A DNA stretch of 64,000 nucleotides from Escherichia coli (lineage in GTDB: Bacteria > Pseudomonadota > Gammaproteobacteria > Enterobacterales > Enterobacteriaceae): the NCBI RefSeq assembly GCF_022846255.1, contig NZ_AP025682.1. One strand, 5' to 3'. Each line of letters opens with the position of its first letter. The stretch's first letter is position 1. The position numbers are program-made. Shown in pieces: positions 53,301 through 59,300 of the stretch.

Positions 53301-56300
53301 ATAAAAAAGCCGGTACCCACAAATGTGGATACCGGCAGGTACAAAACAGCATGGTCAGATAAAGTGGTTTTTCCCGGACATAAATGCTTCCCCTCTCTCA
53401 TCCGCCTGAGAAGTATCAGTCCGTTGTGTGCAATTCCGTTCTGCATGATGAAGAGATTCAGCTGCCTTTTCGCAGGCCATTAACCACTATAAACGATCGA
53501 TGGTGACGATCGATACCTGTTTTATCGATCGTTTTATTCTATTAATAACAAGGCAGCCACGCAAGAGAAACAGGAGGAGTATGAGGGGTTTGTGTCATGT
53601 TTTCAGTTGGTTAACGCAATGTAATCAGGCATTTCCTCTGGCAGAGTGTTCAGAAGAAAATCCAGTTCCATACCGCGCGGGCAACAGAGACCACGGTGTC
53701 ACGGACGGCACGCAGAACCGTACGAGCCACAGAGGCAACACAGACGCTCTCCGCCGTGTCAAATATCCGGTCCACCGCACCGGTAAACTGTTCACGGGCC
53801 TGCCCCCGGACAGATTCCGTGCACAGCTCGTCCTGCAGGCGGGTCATCAGGGGACTGGCGGCATGGTCGGGAAGTGCTGTCATGAGCGCACTGACCAGCG
53901 TATCCAGTTCCCAGCCGGTGCGGGCCGATACGGCCACAACCGGATGTACGGGCCGGAACAGCCGGAATACCGCATCTGTTTTCTCACGAATGTTCTGTTC
54001 CTGTGCGGGAGAAGGCTGAATACCTGCCATATCCCATTCATGGCAGGGCTCCGTTTTGTCGGCCTGCGTCACCACAAACAGCACCTGCTGATGTCCCCGG
54101 TGCAGGATGTGTCGCCAGAAATAGTCATCCACAGACAGGGCCCGGTCATCGGCTTTAATCAGCCACAGTACCAGGTCAAGTTCAGGCAGAATGTCACGGT
54201 ACAGGGCTTCATACTCTGCATCCCTGTCCCGGCTCTCGCCCACCCCGGGCAGGTCAGTGATAACCATGCTGTGACCATGGCCACTCAGACGGAAGCGCTG
54301 CACTTCCCGGGTGCCGGCGTGAACATCACTGACCGGGGTGACCTCCCCCTGAAACAGTGCATTACAGAGTGAGGATTTACCGGCCCCGCTTTTTCCCATA
54401 ATGCCAATCACGGGTTCGTGGCTGGTGAGTTTGCGCAGATGTTCCAGGATGTGACGGGAAAGTGAGTAAGGCAGGGAGGAGAGCGGTTTTTCAATTGCCT
54501 CAATGGCATCAGACGGATTCATACATGTATTCCCGGTGAAAAAAGACAAAACCCCGCGCACCGGAAAGGTGGCGGGGGGATTCACGGAGATAATATCTGC
54601 CTGAAATTATTTGGAATGCAGGTATATGTGGCTGATTTGTATCAGCTAATGAGTACAGGTCTGAATCTAATCTGACAGTCCGCTCTGTGCCAGGAGCGGA
54701 CATTGTTTTCCAACTATTACCTAAGCCTGCGAACCATCTCATCTTCACCCCTTAAATTCTCAATGTATCGATAACCGCTCGTAGGGCGGGTGACACATTG
54801 CGGTGCGGATAATAGATATATGAACCCTCCAGGCGTTGGCTGTAGCATTGCAAAACTCTGATTAGCGCCCCCTGTTCTATATCATCAGACACTAATTCCT
54901 CCGGAACATAAGCCAGCCCCAGACCTAGCCTTGCGGCTTTGGCTTCCATATAACTGTCAGCAAAGGCCCATTGTCCCTGAGGCTGATGGGTGATCTTTTT
55001 ACCGTCCTGATTGAGTTCCCAGGCATACAGACTGCCGTCGCCGAACTGGTAAGCGATGCAGGGATGACCTACTAAATCGGTGGGGGTTTGTGGAAATCCG
55101 TAGCGCTGAAAGTGCCCGGGCGTGCCGACAACAGCCATCTCCATATCGGGCGAAATGCGCACCGCAACCATACCGCTATCCACTTCCGAGCCCAGACGTA
55201 TACCGGCATCGAAGCGCTCAGTAATAATATCGACAAACCGGCTTTCGCTGATGAGCTCCAGCCGAATATCCGGGTATCGTTGTTTAAACACCGCCAGCTT
55301 CGGCAGCAGCACTTTATCAATGGCGTGCTGGCTCGCATTAATTCGGACCGTACCCGATGGTGTATGGCGATAATGGGCCAGCGTGGCAAGCCCCATATCT
55401 AAGGCGTCAAATCCAGATTCGACGTTTCGATATAGTAACTCGCCGGCATGGGTGAGCGATAACTTGCGCGTGGTGCGTACCAGAAGCTGCACGCCCAGTC
55501 GCTCTTCCAGCTCGCGCACTGCACGGCTAATTCCTGACTGCGCCAGGCCAAGCCTCTGCGCGGCGGCGGTAAAACTCCCTTCTCGCACGACCTGCATAAA
55601 CAGATAGAGATCGTTATAGTTTTCCCGTTTCGCCATCATCCTTCCCCTGCTGCATCACAATTCAGAACAATATGTTATTAATCTTAGCATTTTTTACCCT
55701 CTAATTAGCACTATTAATGCTAACTATAATGTGCGCGTTGCAACAAAGCACAGCAGTGTTATCCGTATGAAACCAGTATCTGGCACATTTTATGAGGGGG
55801 ATTTTGATGACTGCTTTCACCCAAAAATTGACAGCCGCGATATCCACCATGCTGTTATGCGTATCATTAAGTGGAGTCACAAATATGAGTTACGCTGATA
55901 CAACCAATCCGAACGCGCCCGTTTCGCAGGTCGAGAAATGGGATAAAACTTTTGCTGAGAGCACGAAAGTTGATCACCGTAAGGTGACCTTTCCGAACCG
56001 GTACGGGATCACCTTAGTCGGGGATCTCTATATACCGAAGGATCGTGGCGATCGCAAGATGGCAGCAATTGCTGTTAGTGGCCCCTTCGGGGCGGTGAAA
56101 GAGCAATCCAGTGGCCTGTATGCGCAGACGCTGGCTGAACGGGGGTTTGTCACTCTGGCTTTTGACCCTTCATACACGGGTGAAAGCGGCGGCTACCCGC
56201 GAAACGTCGCATCTCCGGATATCAACACCGAGGATTTCAGCGCGGCGGTTGATTTCTTAGGCCTGCAAAAAGAGGTGGATCGCAACCGTATCGGGTTGCT

Positions 56301-59300
56301 CGGCATCTGCGGATGGGGTGGCATGGCCTTAAACGACGCCGCGATGGACACACGTGTCAAGGCGGTGGCGAGCAGCGTGATGTATGACATGAGCCGTGCA
56401 ATGGGGCATGGCGTGGGCGATGGCAAAGACCGCTATACCACTGCCGATCGTCGTGCCGTATTGCAGTATTTGAACATGCAGCGCTGGAAGGATGCTGAAA
56501 ATGGCGCTTTCGCGCCAGGCGGGCATGATATTTACGTTGATGAGAAGGGCAACGTCACCGCTTCCGATCGTATTTTACCGGAAACTTTGCCAGCGAATTC
56601 TAATCCGGTATTGAAAGAGTTCTTTGATTATTACCGCATGCCGCGTGGTTTCCATGCGCGTTCGGTCAACTCAACCAGTGCCTGGAATGCAACCATGCCG
56701 CTGTCATTTATGAATATGCCGCTGCTGAGTTACGCTAATGAAGTTACTATCCCTACACTCATCGTGACCGGTGAAAAAGCCCATTCACGCTATTTTGCTG
56801 AAGATGCCTTTAAGGCAATCGGCAGCAAAGAGAAAGAGTTAGTGATTGTCCCCGAGGCAAACCATGTTGATCTGTACGACAACGTTGCGGGTAAGATCCC
56901 ATTTGCCAAATTTGAGCAATTTTTCAAGGCAAACTTAAGATAACCCGAAAGGTTTACCAGGCCACCTGTCGTAAACGGGTGGCTTTTAACTGCCTAGTGT
57001 GATGCAGAATATGCCGCATCTCCCTATATTCTCACCCAACTATTATGTCGTTATTCCCTGAATAACTTCTGACCCGATTGCGCTTGAATCTGGCTGGTTC
57101 GATATTAAGGGGGCTAATAATGTCCACTGTAAGTCTCAAACAATTATACGGAAAAACGCATGCATACTGGAGCGGCGTATTCGCCATGACGCTTTGCGTG
57201 TTTGTGCTGATCGCTTCTGAGTTTATGCCAGTCAGCCTGCTTACGCTCATTGCCCATGATTTGCACGTTACCGAAGGGCTGGCAGGGCAAGGAATTGCTG
57301 TCTCTGGTGCGCTGGCGGTGCTTACCAGTCTGACTATCTCCCGTATTACCGGAGACCTGAATCGAAAATATCTTCTGCTGGGGCTGACGGCCTTAATGGC
57401 CATATCGGGAATAGTTATCACCATAGCACCTGACTATCCGGTTTATATGCTGGGGAGGGCCCTGATTGGTATCGTCATTGGAGGGTTCTGGTCAATGTCG
57501 GCTGCAACCGCCATTCGGCTCGTGCCGAAGCAGCATGTCCCCCGCGCACTGGCAATTTTTAACGGCGGAAACGCACTGGCCACCGTTGTGGCAGCGCCAC
57601 TTGGTAGCTATCTGGGGACAACCATCGGCTGGCGTGGGGCCTTTTTATGTCTGGTCCCCCTTGCGATAGCTGCGTTCATCTGGCAATGGGTCAGTCTGCC
57701 TCCGATGGAAAGTGATAAAACACAAAAGCCACAGAGATCTGTGCTTCGCCTGTTCAGCGTTGCCATCGTACCAACGGGACTGCTGGCCTGCGGACTCTTC
57801 TTTATGGGACAGTTTGCTTTATTTACCTACGTGCGCCCCTTTCTGGAGAGCGTCACCAGAGTGGGACCTTCTGATCTTTCTCTGATTTTGCTCGCAATAG
57901 GTGTAGCAGGTTTTGTCGGCACAATGATCGTCTCAACATTCCTGAACACCATATTTTATAAGACCTTAATAATGATCCCGTTGCTTATGGCAGCGATTAC
58001 CGGTGCGTTACTGCTGGTCGGACACCATATCTGGGCTGTTGCCGTTTTACTCAGCCTGTGGGGGCTACTTGCGACAGCTGCGCCAACGGGGTGGTGGACA
58101 TGGATAGCACGCGCGTTACCCGAAGATGCAGAGACGGGGGGAGGCCTCATGGTTGCAGTGATTCAGTTATCTATTGCACTTGGTTCAACGGCTGGAGGTC
58201 TGGTATTCGACAGTCTGGGATGGAGAAGTGCTTTTGGTTTAAGTGGTTTGTTACTTCTGGGAGCGGTAGCGATGACATGTGCCACATCCCGTCAAAACAG
58301 GAAGGCGCAGTAGCGCAATCCTTTTATTTCTGGCGTACGCTCTTTAAGGCATCCGGCTGAGAGGCTAATGATCACTCCTCGCTCACAACGGACCTTCAGC
58401 TCAGCTGCTCCGGCCGCTTCATGCCATGAATGTACGCAGCCAGCCAGAATATTAAGGTGCGGATTTCAGTTCACTTGCCAGCCCAGTGATACAGGACAGT
58501 AATGACCAACAATTTTGTATTGACACAACAAGTTGCGGCCCCGGTTCGTGGAGGAGATTAAACGACTGTAGCCGGGGCCACTGAAATGAAGAATTCAGAG
58601 AGACTGAATGATATGTCGCACCTTCAGTGAATAGTGTAAAAACCGGGATATTCTCATCCGGGATTACCCACTCATACTCAATGCGTAACTTTAGTGCGGC
58701 CCCACAGGTAAGAGCCGGACACATTTGTTGAGTACGCTGCAGAATTGGTAACCGGGGCCCTGCAGTCTTTAACTCTGTGTCTTGTGTTGCTCATTTGCCA
58801 CAAAATCCTGGTACGCCTGCTCAATCATTTCATTCAGCAGTTTTTTTGAGGGGACACCACGACTTTGGGTAATACTTTCAGGCTGTTTGTGGATTTTTCC
58901 GGACAGTTTCAGCGGACGGAACCATCAGCATGTTCATCACGCCTTTTTTGTTGCTCCCGGGCACTTTTTCAGCTCATCCACAATATAGCTGCTCTTCTCG
59001 CATTTTTGCCGATTTTAAAAATGCGAACAAAACATCCGTACATGATGTACAGATTAAACTGCCAGGGACTGGTGTCAGAAAGCCTCCGGTTAGCCTGCTC
59101 TTTCCGGAATGTGCCGGTTATGAAAAACCGGAAATTCAGTCTCTGTTGTAAGATGTACCCTCTGATACTACGTTTTCGTTTTCTCTGTGTATTTAACTCA
59201 CTGTATTTATTGTCTTTTTAAGCCTGACTGATATTCTCCGGTCATAGTGTGCCGGATAGACATCCCGTAACCTTCTCATTTTTATATAAAAATACCTGCA

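What the first reader, a model, noticed from the sequence alone, without database searches (positions are those of the whole stretch)
54752..58313. LysR regulator with divergent secreted hydrolase and MFS transporter as island cargo
A divergently transcribed LysR gene with a T-N11-A palindrome (TTAGCA-N7-TGCTAA) in the shared promoter region controls, by architecture, a signal-peptide alpha/beta hydrolase and an MFS transporter. This looks like a small catabolic or detoxification module (hydrolyse a periplasmic ester or lactone, import or export the product) carried by the island. The substrate is not evident.
Basis: inference. Interest (0 to 1): 0.35.

Follow-up and report, generated by a model that had tools for sequence, protein, structure and literature searches.

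The report
LysR-regulated cysteine hydrolase and exporter cassette
A 3.7-kb, three-gene cassette (a regulator, an exported enzyme and a membrane pump) sits as swappable cargo in an E. coli pathogenicity island. It is real and conserved in many bacteria, but it is an ordinary kind of self-regulated unit, and what it acts on is still unknown.

Summary
Window 54752-58313 encodes a LysR-type regulator (-), a divergent exported alpha/beta hydrolase (+) and an MFS transporter (+). TTAGCA-N7-TGCTAA is at 55705-55723.

The window is E. coli. The three genes form a discrete 3.7-kb cassette (54686-58396) in a variable slot next to yeeP, inside a pheV island. It is complete in only about 100 of 5,426 complete E. 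coli genomes. The closest relative outside E. coli among the records searched is on a Kosakonia plasmid (93% DNA identity, same ends).

- **Palindrome.** It is not the T-N11-A box. Its conserved core is AGCA-N7-TGCT, directly upstream of an invariant TATAAT. The T-N11-A-type dyad lies upstream at 55664-55678.
- **Hydrolase.** It has no Ser-His-Asp triad. It belongs to the uncharacterised PA2218/YcjY family, with Cys168 at the nucleophile elbow, His353, and Ala in the usual acid slot.
- **Intergenic hairpin.** A conserved hairpin separates hydrolase and MFS.
- **MFS.** It resembles exporters (NepI, SotB).
- **Closest studied analogue.** This is E. coli K-12 pgrR-ycjY, where the regulator is a repressor.

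LysR-hydrolase linkage is strongly supported by co-conservation. Substrate and sign of regulation are unknown. Ordinary; low-to-moderate interest.

The parts
54686..58396 (.). The cassette as a unit: the DNA shared with a Kosakonia cowanii plasmid and absent from E. coli islands that have the same backbone
   Evidence: window 54686-58396 matches L092 5987-9701 at 93.2% identity; other E. coli match only up to about 54699 and again from about 58379; homology to other species' copies stops at the three genes.
54678..54701 (+). Left-border hairpin GTCCGCTC-TGTGCCAG-GAGCGGAC, one copy of a dispersed hairpin repeat
   Evidence: The same hairpin follows yeeP in strain SJ2D, ahead of different cargo. 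Copies flank cassettes on the Kosakonia plasmid.
54752..55636 (-). LysR-type transcriptional regulator, 294 aa (an alternative ATG lies at 55639)
   Evidence: HTH_1 and LysR_substrate. (RefSeq start); 40% identical to K-12 PgrR/YcjZ; closest solved structures are CrgA (3HHG) and AphB (3SZP).
55664..55678 (.). Site 1: dyad AGAACA-N3-TGTTAT. Orthologues have ATAACA-N3-TGnTAT, which is T-N11-A. This is the probable primary LysR recognition site, at about -66 from the inferred transcription start.
   Evidence: It is the most conserved block of the intergenic region in 12 enterobacterial loci and is recognisable in Aeromonas.
55684..55704 (.). Site 2: TTAGCA ... CTCTAA (inverted TTAG/CTAA), centred at about -43. 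It overlaps the conserved TAATC repeats at 55678-82 and 55702-06.
   Evidence: for conservation. TAATC half-sites recur in alphaproteobacterial loci and in the K-12 pgrR-ycjY intergenic region. Its role is inferred.
55705..55723 (.).
55725..55730 (+). Candidate -10 hexamer TATAAT of the hydrolase promoter. No acceptable -35 lies 16-18 bp upstream.
   Evidence: TATAAT is invariant in 12 enterobacterial loci (TAGAAT in Aeromonas) and lies 75-79 nt from the start codon in 11 of them. The transcription start is inferred, not measured. The consensus scan did not call a promoter here because there is no -35.
55731..55806 (+). Sequence-conserved leader with the Shine-Dalgarno sequence GAGGGGGA
   Evidence: for conservation; no supported RNA structure (0 compensatory pairs); no Rfam match.
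55807..56943 (+). Exported alpha/beta hydrolase of the PA2218/YcjY family, 378 aa. Signal peptide 55807-55896. Cys168 codon 56308-56310. His353 codon 56863-56865.
56959..56989 (+). Intercistronic hairpin plus T-run (terminator-like or attenuating)
   Evidence: -21.6 kcal/mol, z -1.96; a GC-rich hairpin of different sequence sits at the same place in all nine other orthologous loci examined; a clear T-run follows in most (weak in K. michiganensis, absent in Phytobacter).
57050..57066 (.). Palindrome GTTATTC-N3-GAATAAC, 54 bp upstream of the MFS start. Its role is unknown.
   Evidence: the block is conserved in the five loci with a long hydrolase-MFS spacer and absent where the spacer is 59-90 bp.
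57120..58313 (+). MFS transporter, 397 aa, most similar to drug/metabolite exporters
   Evidence: MFS_1. NepI 276 bits (below the 584 cut-off), then sugar efflux, Cmx/CmrA and AraJ; the only solved relatives are SotB sugar efflux transporter structures.
58378..58393 (+). Right-border remnant of the companion hairpin (CTCGCTCACAACGGAC)

Best explanation
The finding is a self-contained, horizontally exchanged cassette of three genes.

**Regulator and operator (inferred).** The LysR-type regulator is a paralogue of E. coli PgrR/YcjZ. It most likely binds a three-part operator in the 170-bp divergent region:
- a T-N11-A-type dyad at about -66;
- a second site at about -43;

Through these sites it most likely controls its own gene and a hydrolase promoter that has a perfect -10 and no -35.

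**Hydrolase.** The regulated gene encodes an exported enzyme of the uncharacterised PA2218/YcjY family. The family uses a cysteine (Cys168) and a histidine (His353) rather than a Ser-His-Asp triad.

**Transporter (inferred).** Transcription probably reads partly through a conserved intercistronic hairpin into an MFS transporter of the exporter type.

**Function (inferred).** The most likely function is inducible handling of an unidentified small acyl compound (ester, thioester, lactone or amide type). The enzyme would cleave it in the periplasm and the pump would export it or its product from the cytoplasm.

**Shown versus inferred.** Shown here: the gene identities, the conservation of the operator blocks, the co-inheritance of the regulator-hydrolase pair (and often the MFS), the Cys/His conservation, and the island-cargo status. 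Inferred: binding of this regulator to these sites, the transcription start, co-transcription, the direction of transport, the sign of regulation and the substrate.
For: **Gene identities.**

**Module conservation.**
- The same three genes occur in the same order in different chromosomal contexts: E. coli O55:H7, K. michiganensis and Rahnella, and further Enterobacterales and Psychrobacter.
- Regulator and MFS homologues lie next to the hydrolase in rearranged orders in Sphingomonas, Novosphingobium, Bosea, Brevundimonas, Acinetobacter and Luteimonas.
- A LysR gene neighbours the hydrolase in 33 of about 80 loci and this MFS family in 19.

**Paralogous precedent.**
- The window LysR is 40% identical to PgrR and the hydrolase is 33% identical to YcjY. 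In K-12 the two genes are divergent neighbours.
- PgrR binds the ycjY/ycjZ spacer and its listed regulon includes the ycjY operon (PMC5934670).
- PgrR represses its own promoter (PMC10505187).

**Operator.**
- Three blocks are conserved while the spacers vary, and TATAAT is invariant.
- TAATC half-sites are shared with the pgrR-ycjY region and with alphaproteobacterial loci.

**Enzyme.**
- In the model, Cys168 lies between strand 157-167 and helix 169-180, and His353 follows the last strand.
- Cys is present in 100 of 105 family members and His in 101 of 105.
- Every sequence with Cys has His. Four of the five sequences that lack Cys also lack His.

**Hairpin.** It is conserved in position but not in sequence. 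In O55:H7 and Kluyvera the whole spacer is 72-75 bp, which leaves no room for a separate promoter, so read-through is required there.

**Cargo status.**
Against: - No expression, binding or enzyme data exist for this cassette.
- The consensus promoter scan found nothing in the divergent region.
- The transcription start, and therefore the -66/-43/-23 numbering, rests only on the conserved TATAAT.
- The hairpin, and a separate conserved palindrome upstream of the MFS, could mean that the MFS is regulated independently.
- Four proteobacterial loci keep LysR and hydrolase without the MFS.
- No acidic residue could be assigned as a third catalytic member. The canonical slot is Ala in 98 of 105 sequences, and Glu/Asp323 and Asp194 are each replaced in some Cys/His-bearing members.
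- A lone free thiol in the oxidising periplasm is unusual.
- In other phyla the family sits beside cupins, aldo/keto reductases, flavodoxins and acetyltransferases. In K-12 it sits beside murein-peptide genes. Genomic context therefore does not converge on one substrate.
Confidence: 0.55

Rival explanations
1. The enzyme is not a degradative hydrolase. It is an acyl-transferring or thioester-cleaving enzyme, like its nearest characterised structural relatives. It would modify or mature a compound that the MFS exports, or modify an envelope component.
Against: Sequence identity to these enzymes is only 21-22%. No biosynthetic genes lie in or next to the cassette in any context examined.
Confidence: 0.15
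2. The MFS is only a neighbour. It is expressed from its own promoter and is not controlled by this LysR, so the functional unit is just regulator plus hydrolase.
For: There is a terminator-like hairpin after the hydrolase. A separate conserved palindrome lies upstream of the MFS. LysR-hydrolase pairs without the MFS occur in L011, L012, L014 and L018.
Against: MFS homologues of 43-65% identity stay next to the hydrolase in different gene orders across Alpha- and Gammaproteobacteria. In O55:H7 and Kluyvera the spacer is too short for an independent promoter. The cassette moves as one piece with the same ends.
Confidence: 0.12
3. It is a catabolic module. The periplasmic enzyme releases a nutrient and the MFS imports it.
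For: MFS proteins can be importers.
Against: Every named relative of this MFS is an exporter: NepI, sugar efflux/SotB, Cmx/CmrA and AraJ. No downstream catabolic genes accompany the cassette.
Confidence: 0.08
4. It is a quorum-quenching acyl-homoserine-lactone lactonase like UilS of Serratia, which would be relevant in a urinary isolate.
For: The best NCBIfam hit for the hydrolase is the UilS lactonase family, E 2e-18. UilS contributes to urinary tract infection (PMC11633161).
Against: The score is 67 bits against a cut-off of 400 and covers only residues 78-198. UilS is a 31.5-kDa cytoplasmic protein, whereas this one is exported and larger.
Confidence: 0.05
5. The hydrolase acts on peptidoglycan-derived peptides, by analogy with the K-12 pgrR-ycjY-mpaA unit, but in the periplasm.
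For: Both the regulator and the enzyme are paralogous to PgrR and YcjY. YcjY is in an operon with murein tripeptide amidase mpaA and lies next to mppA and ycjG. PgrR is described as a peptidoglycan-recycling regulator.
Against: The activity of YcjY itself is unknown. No murein-peptide genes accompany the cassette or its orthologues.
Confidence: 0.05

Closest known systems
E. coli K-12 pgrR (ycjZ) - ycjY-ymjD-ymjC-mpaA
   Same: A divergent LysR-type regulator and a YcjY-family Cys-type alpha/beta hydrolase. The regulators are 40% identical and the enzymes 33% identical. TAATC(A) repeats occur in the shared intergenic region. Binding of the regulator to that region and negative autoregulation are published.
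   Different: YcjY has no signal peptide. Its operon carries murein-peptide genes and no MFS. It is core chromosome rather than island cargo. PgrR is a repressor, while the sign of regulation here is unknown.
PA2218 of Pseudomonas aeruginosa (PDB 2HDW)
   Different: It is a structural-genomics entry with no known activity; it was described as not biochemically characterised in PMC3790968. Its neighbours are PA2219 (opdE, a membrane protein) and PA2220 (a transcriptional regulator). From memory these are an MFS and a LysR gene, but that was not tested here.
Three-site LysR-type operators such as BenM/CatM of Acinetobacter (recalled from the literature, not tested)
   Same: Three sites about two helical turns apart: a strong upstream dyad near -65 and weaker sites near -43 and -22 that overlap a promoter lacking a good -35.
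   Different: The site sequences differ. Occupancy, inducer and the transcription start are unknown here.
Dienelactone hydrolase (ClcD) and other Cys-His-Asp alpha/beta hydrolases
   Same: Cys at the nucleophile elbow; Cys168 aligns with ClcD Cys123. There is a weak Pfam DLH hit.
NepI, SotB and AaeR-aaeXAB-type regulated efflux
   Same: An MFS of the 12-helix exporter type. A LysR-controlled efflux unit is a common design.
   Different: The MFS is below the NepI family cut-off (276 versus 584 bits). Its substrate is unknown, and it is paired with an exported enzyme.

Membership tests
LysR-type transcriptional regulators | N-terminal winged helix-turn-helix (HTH_1) plus a C-terminal LysR substrate-binding domain | tested here: met
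   HTH_1 at residues 9-67, E 7e-24; LysR_substrate at residues 93-294, E 3.5e-36.
LysR-type transcriptional regulators | Divergent arrangement with a target gene, and a T-N11-A dyad in the shared region | tested here: met
Divergence. The dyad ATAACA-N3-TGnTAT (T-N11-A) is conserved in orthologues.
LysR-type transcriptional regulators | Binding of this protein to these sites, and response to an effector | not testable with these tools
   Needs gel shift, footprinting and reporter assays.
YafC, AaeR or GcvA equivalogs (NCBIfam) | Score above the curated cut-off | tested here: not met
   YafC 197 versus 470; GcvA 128 versus 288; AaeR 126 versus 425.
Alpha/beta hydrolase fold | Central beta-sheet with the nucleophile elbow after strand 5 and a His after the last strand | tested here: met
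Serine hydrolases (Ser-His-Asp triad), including PETase-like PF12740 | Ser in G-x-S-x-G at the nucleophile elbow, and Asp/Glu after strand 7 | tested here: not met
   The elbow reads G-I-C-G-W-G. Cys is present in 100 of 105 relatives, and the canonical acid slot is Ala in 98 of 105. The PF12740 hit (34 bits) covers only the first half of the model.
PA2218/YcjY family (uncharacterised) | Full-length similarity with the shared motifs GAVKEQ, GICGxGG and HxDLYD | tested here: met
Dienelactone hydrolase (PF01738) | Cys-His-Asp triad with Asp after strand 7; Pfam gathering score | tested here: inconclusive
   21.6 bits against a cut-off of 21, but no stretch passes on its own. The Asp slot is Ala.
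UilS quorum-quenching lactonase (NF047920) | Score of at least 400 bits; cytoplasmic protein of about 31 kDa | tested here: not met
   67 bits covering residues 78-198 only. UilS is cytoplasmic.
Major facilitator superfamily, exporter type | MFS_1 domain with closest relatives among efflux pumps | tested here: met
   (E 4e-41). (NepI, sugar efflux, Cmx/CmrA). (SotB). The direction of transport was not tested.
NepI purine ribonucleoside efflux pump (equivalog) | Score of at least 584 bits | tested here: not met
   276 bits.
Genomic-island cargo | Lies in a tRNA-associated island with an integrase; presence/absence polymorphism with a defined empty site | tested here: met
   tRNA-Phe and a frameshifted integrase. 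The kps cluster lies on the other side. The cassette is complete in 102 of 5,426 genomes. Empty or alternative sites are seen in L089 and L094.

The most novel reading that the evidence does not exclude
The exported enzyme may be a periplasmic cysteine-nucleophile member of a pan-prokaryotic alpha/beta-hydrolase family that nobody has assayed. The family shows 50-65% identity from Enterobacterales to Bacteroidota, Campylobacterota, Clostridia and a Methanobacterium. It may have a catalytic centre without the canonical acid and an activity not yet described. The cassette that carries it may move between plasmids and islands by recombination at a dispersed double-hairpin repeat (stems GTCCGCT/AGCGGAC), which marks cassette borders.
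Probability: 0.15. Interest if true: 0.5.

Novelty: new member of a known kind. Interest (0 to 1): 0.27.

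Why it matters
Taken by itself this is one more LysR-controlled accessory unit in an extraintestinal E. coli island, so little changes if the reading is right.

Its value is as a convenient entry point:
- The hydrolase family is very widespread, strongly conserved and structurally solved twice (2HDW, 5XB6), yet has no known activity.
- The cassette supplies a dedicated regulator whose inducer would point to the substrate.
- The K-12 paralogue pair pgrR-ycjY gives a tractable comparison.

The cassette is also carried next to paoABCD by E. coli O157:H7 and O55:H7, and on Klebsiella, Salmonella and Pantoea plasmids. Any phenotype found would therefore apply broadly.

Tried and rejected
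- **Rfam.** The scan of 54400-58800 at E up to 1 gave only a sub-threshold NsiR4 hit over the intercistronic hairpin. No known RNA element is present.
- **RNA structure in the conserved 76-nt leader.** RNAalifold gave -3.2 kcal/mol and no compensatory pairs. Rejected.
- **Consensus promoter scan.** It found nothing in the divergent region and did not list the hairpin at 56959. The promoter proposal rests on conservation of TATAAT instead.
- **UilS lactonase, PETase and NepI membership.** All were rejected on curated cut-offs or on missing defining residues.
- **Ser127 (G-E-S-G-G) as the nucleophile.** Rejected. In the model it lies in the loop after strand 115-119, which I take to be strand 4. 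I read it as the common D-x-x-G-x-G-x-S motif rather than the elbow.
- **A third catalytic residue.** Glu323, Asp194, His326, Asp355 and Asp358 were checked across 105 sequences. None is both well placed and invariant. Model coordinates could not be inspected.
- **Literature.** Searches for PA2218, 2HDW, 5XB6, YcjY, af380, GrgF and DcsB found no functional study of the family.
- **Integron attC sites.** I considered whether the border hairpins are attC sites. I saw no RYYYAAC/GTTRRRY cores by eye in the aligned copies, and the nearby recombinase on the Kosakonia plasmid sits beside a phage tail-fibre gene. The question was not pursued further.
- **The hairpin repeat as a common E. coli REP element.** Rejected. 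It occurs at most three times per genome and in about 7% of genomes.

Full report
**1. What is there**

The ORF list and Pfam scan confirm three intact genes.
- **LysR-type regulator.** It lies on the minus strand at 54752-55636 (an alternative ATG is at 55639). HTH_1 scores E 7e-24 and LysR_substrate E 3.5e-36.
- **Alpha/beta hydrolase.** It lies on the plus strand. The ORF opens at 55792. The start supported by the Shine-Dalgarno sequence, by all orthologues and by RefSeq is 55807, giving 378 aa ending at 56943.
- **MFS transporter.** The ORF runs from 57078. The supported start is 57120, giving 397 aa ending at 58313.

The window is E. coli. The region is 100% identical to the chromosome of urinary isolate 82.0311, where RefSeq annotates the genes only as 'LysR family transcriptional regulator', 'alpha/beta hydrolase' and 'MFS transporter'.

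The palindrome TTAGCACTATTAATGCTAA is at 55705-55723.

**2. Island cargo: supported and sharpened**

In strain 82.0311 the genes lie about 45-49 kb from tRNA-Phe (pheV) and a frameshifted integrase. The kps capsule cluster and the gsp genes lie on the far side.

The immediate neighbours are a CP4-44-like block: cbtA/cbeA, Ag43 and the yeeP GTPase.

The full region is present in only 102 of 5,426 complete E. coli genomes.

Islands with the same backbone have something else after yeeP.
- Strain FUJ80154 has an unrelated 1.15-kb gene.
- Strain SJ2D has a hypothetical gene plus a DUF4365 gene.

The closest relative outside E. coli among the records searched is on an 80-kb Kosakonia cowanii plasmid. 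Window 54686-58396 aligns at 93.2% DNA identity, and the homology stops at both ends within a few bases of the E. coli break-points. The proteins are 97%, 95.5% and 92% identical.

Other species' copies share only the three genes, at 74-81% DNA identity for Enterobacterales and less in Aeromonas and Psychrobacter. The unit is therefore a discrete 3.7-kb cassette in a variable cargo slot.

**3. The module is conserved as a module**

The same LysR(-)/hydrolase(+)/MFS(+) arrangement occurs in unrelated chromosomal contexts:
- E. coli O55:H7 and O157:H7, next to paoABCD (at least 432 genomes);
- Klebsiella michiganensis and Rahnella;
- Phytobacter, Hafnia, Kluyvera, Enterobacter and Psychrobacter.

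Homologues of this LysR (37-52% identity) and this MFS (43-65%) also lie next to the hydrolase in different gene orders. This is seen in Sphingomonas, Novosphingobium, Bosea, Brevundimonas, Acinetobacter and Luteimonas. Retention through rearrangement is good evidence of functional linkage.

The pair LysR plus hydrolase is the more constant core. Four loci have it without the MFS.

**4. The closest studied analogue**

E. coli K-12 carries the paralogous pair pgrR (ycjZ) and ycjY as divergent neighbours. The window regulator is 40% identical to PgrR over its full length (E 4e-73). The hydrolase is 33% identical to YcjY.

PgrR binds the ycjY/ycjZ spacer, and its listed regulon includes ycjY-ymjDC-mpaA (PMC5934670). 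It represses its own promoter (PMC10505187). RefSeq calls it a repressor.

This supports the claim that the window regulator controls the hydrolase. It also warns that the regulator may repress rather than activate.

**5. The regulatory region**

Fourteen orthologous intergenic regions were aligned (four of them). Conserved blocks are separated by variable spacers.

| Element | Sequence | Window coordinates | Notes |
|---|---|---|---|
| i | ATTTATAACAATnTGnTATTAAT | 55664-55678 | A true T-N11-A dyad in most loci; the window reads AGAACA-N3-TGTTAT |
| ii | yTAGCA ... CTCTAA | 55684-55704 | Inverted TTAG/CTAA |
| iv | TATAAT | 55725-55730 | Invariant; 75-79 nt before the start codon in 11 of 12 enterobacterial loci |

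For element iii, the core is exact in 10 of 12 enterobacterial loci and has one mismatch in the other two. The window's TTAGCA is a local variant of TCAGCA.

No acceptable -35 lies 16-18 bp upstream of the TATAAT. That is why the consensus scan called no promoter.

If transcription starts about 7 nt after the TATAAT, the three sites centre near -66, -43 and -23. This start is an inference. The sites are about two helical turns apart, which is the layout I recall for three-site LysR-type operators such as BenM/CatM. That is memory, not a test.

TAATC half-sites recur in the K-12 pgrR-ycjY spacer. They also recur, as TAATCGAT-N3-ATCGATTA plus a downstream TAATCG, in alphaproteobacterial loci.

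It is the promoter-proximal site, not the T-N11-A box. Alone it is not statistically remarkable.

**6. The hydrolase**

The AlphaFold model (pLDDT 89) shows:
- an N-terminal helix (residues 2-21) and a disordered linker (21-38), consistent with a signal peptide;
- a canonical core;
- a large lid.

The residue at the nucleophile elbow, between strand 157-167 and helix 169-180, is Cys168 (G-I-C-G-W-G), not Ser. It is the only cysteine in the mature protein.

Conservation across 105 family members:

| Position | Conservation |
|---|---|
| Cys168 | 100/105 |
| His353 (in A-N-H-V-D-L-Y-D) | 101/105 |
| K98-E99-Q100 (GAVKEQ) | 105/105 |
| Ala325 (canonical acid position after strand 7) | 98/105 |

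All 100 sequences with Cys have His. The five sequences with Gly in place of Cys mostly lack His as well; three of the five (P0146, P0171, P0246) carry a C-terminal extension. Loss of the two residues together marks them as the catalytic pair.

Glu/Asp323 (97/105) and Asp194 (96/105) are candidates for a third member. Each is replaced in some Cys/His-bearing sequences, and coordinates could not be inspected.

The GxCxG motif of YcjY had already been noted in the literature (PMC3709699).

The family hits in curated libraries are all partial or below cut-off: PETase-like, DLH, and UilS lactonase at 67 versus 400 bits. UilS is cytoplasmic.

**7. Distribution and context of the family**

Identity is 49-65% in Bacteroidota, Campylobacterota, Clostridia, Melainabacteria-like lineages and a Methanobacterium.

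Outside Proteobacteria the recurrent neighbours are cyclophilin-like, cupin, hexapeptide acetyltransferase, aldo/keto reductase and flavodoxin-like genes, with AraC or LysR regulators. Cupin-hydrolase and CMD-hydrolase fusions exist.

This looks like small-molecule detoxification or modification, but it does not identify a substrate.

**8. Hydrolase to MFS**

The 176-bp spacer begins with a GC-rich hairpin plus T-run (56959-56989; -21.6 kcal/mol).

A hairpin of different sequence stands at the same place in all nine other orthologous loci examined, followed by a clear T-run in most of them (weak in K. michiganensis, absent in Phytobacter). In O55:H7 and Kluyvera the whole spacer is only 72-75 bp, so the MFS there must be expressed by read-through.

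The five loci with long spacers share a further palindrome, GTTATTC-N3-GAATAAC (window 57050-57066), 54 bp before the MFS start. Its role is unknown.

The most economical reading is co-transcription with an attenuating or stabilising hairpin. Independent control of the MFS is not excluded.

**9. The MFS**

Its best family matches are NepI (276 bits, below the 584 cut-off), sugar efflux, Cmx/CmrA chloramphenicol efflux and AraJ. The only solved relatives are SotB sugar efflux transporter structures. Export is therefore more likely than import.

**10. Verdict**

The feature is a mobile, self-regulated three-gene cassette of a familiar design. It combines an uncharacterised but already structurally known enzyme family with a regulator that has a studied paralogue in K-12.

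Nothing here is categorically new. The open points are the substrate, the catalytic chemistry of a Cys-His alpha/beta hydrolase without the canonical acid, the sign of regulation, and the hairpin repeats at the cassette borders.

Noticed in passing
window 54678-54701 and 58378-58393; L092 2684, 5987, 9723; L014 7948, 9020; L012 1081; L094 3586: The cassette borders coincide with copies of a hairpin repeat. The full form is two tandem hairpins with the same stems (GTCCGCT/AGCGGAC) and different loops. On the Kosakonia plasmid three copies separate an AraC-aldo/keto-reductase unit, the LysR-hydrolase-MFS unit and the following genes. In Escherichia sp. ESNIH1 two copies flank a gene that, by eye, looks GIY-YIG-like. 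The repeat is rare in E. coli (at most 3 per genome, about 7% of genomes) and unannotated. It may be a recombination substrate for cassette exchange.
   Followed up: partly
window 53650-54700 versus L089 and L094: The position just downstream of the yeeP GTPase gene is a variable cargo slot in CP4-44-like island blocks. It holds this cassette here, a hypothetical gene plus a DUF4365 gene in strain SJ2D, and another hypothetical gene in FUJ80154.
   Followed up: partly
window 55731-55806: The roughly 76-nt leader between the TATAAT and the hydrolase start is strongly conserved in sequence across Enterobacterales (GCATTGCAACAAAGCACAGCAGCGTTGTCCGTATGAAACCTGTA). No RNA structure is supported and there is no Rfam match. 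In Enterobacter cloacae it is shortened to 32 nt. The reason for the conservation is unexplained.
   Followed up: partly
window 57050-57066: A perfect 7-bp-arm palindrome, GTTATTC-N3-GAATAAC, lies upstream of the MFS gene. It is conserved in five loci with long spacers. A copy also remains downstream of the hydrolase in a locus that has lost the MFS (L014 5264).
   Followed up: partly
L002 4931-8406 (E. coli O55:H7 CB9615) and at least 432 E. coli genomes: A second, diverged copy of the same three-gene module (hydrolase 87% identical in protein, about 78% in DNA) sits between a P4-like element and paoABCD in O55:H7, O157:H7 and others. K-12 and BL21 have a deletion there that leaves a LysR fragment.
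   Followed up: partly
P0146, P0171, P0246 (also P0154, P0160): A subclade of the hydrolase family has Gly in place of the catalytic Cys and has mostly lost the His. P0146, P0171 and P0246 also carry a C-terminal extension of about 150 residues. These may be non-catalytic derivatives.
   Followed up: no
P0137: This family member has Trp where all others have conserved Gly (for example WFWAVKEQSSWLY). This is what would result if a genome that reads UGA as Gly (code 25) were translated with UGA as Trp.
   Followed up: no
L077 (Methanobacterium sp. UBA44), 1800-2726 and 4001-4951: An archaeal genome bin carries two copies of the hydrolase family, at 54% and 43% identity to the E. coli protein. 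This suggests inter-domain transfer.
   Followed up: no
P0202, P0207; loci L021-L088: Fusion proteins join a carboxymuconolactone-decarboxylase domain or a cupin domain to the hydrolase. In Bacteroidota, Clostridia and Campylobacterota the hydrolase repeatedly neighbours cupin, cyclophilin-like, hexapeptide acetyltransferase, aldo/keto reductase and flavodoxin-like genes.
   Followed up: partly
L093 8855-8991 (K-12 pgrR-ycjY spacer): The K-12 spacer contains TTAATCATTTAAATGATAG followed by two GGTCTAATCA repeats. These resemble the TAATC repeats of the cassette's operator.
   Followed up: partly
window 1-54600 and beyond (record NZ_CP122454.1, 4427376-4532000): The window spans glc genes, sslE and the gsp type II secretion genes, a group 2 capsule (kps) cluster, and the distal part of a pheV island. 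That part holds cbtA/cbeA, an antirestriction gene, Ag43 (50431-53352) and yeeP. The rest of the island, outside the window, carries pgtABCP, a fimbrial operon and sugar-utilisation genes.
   Followed up: no
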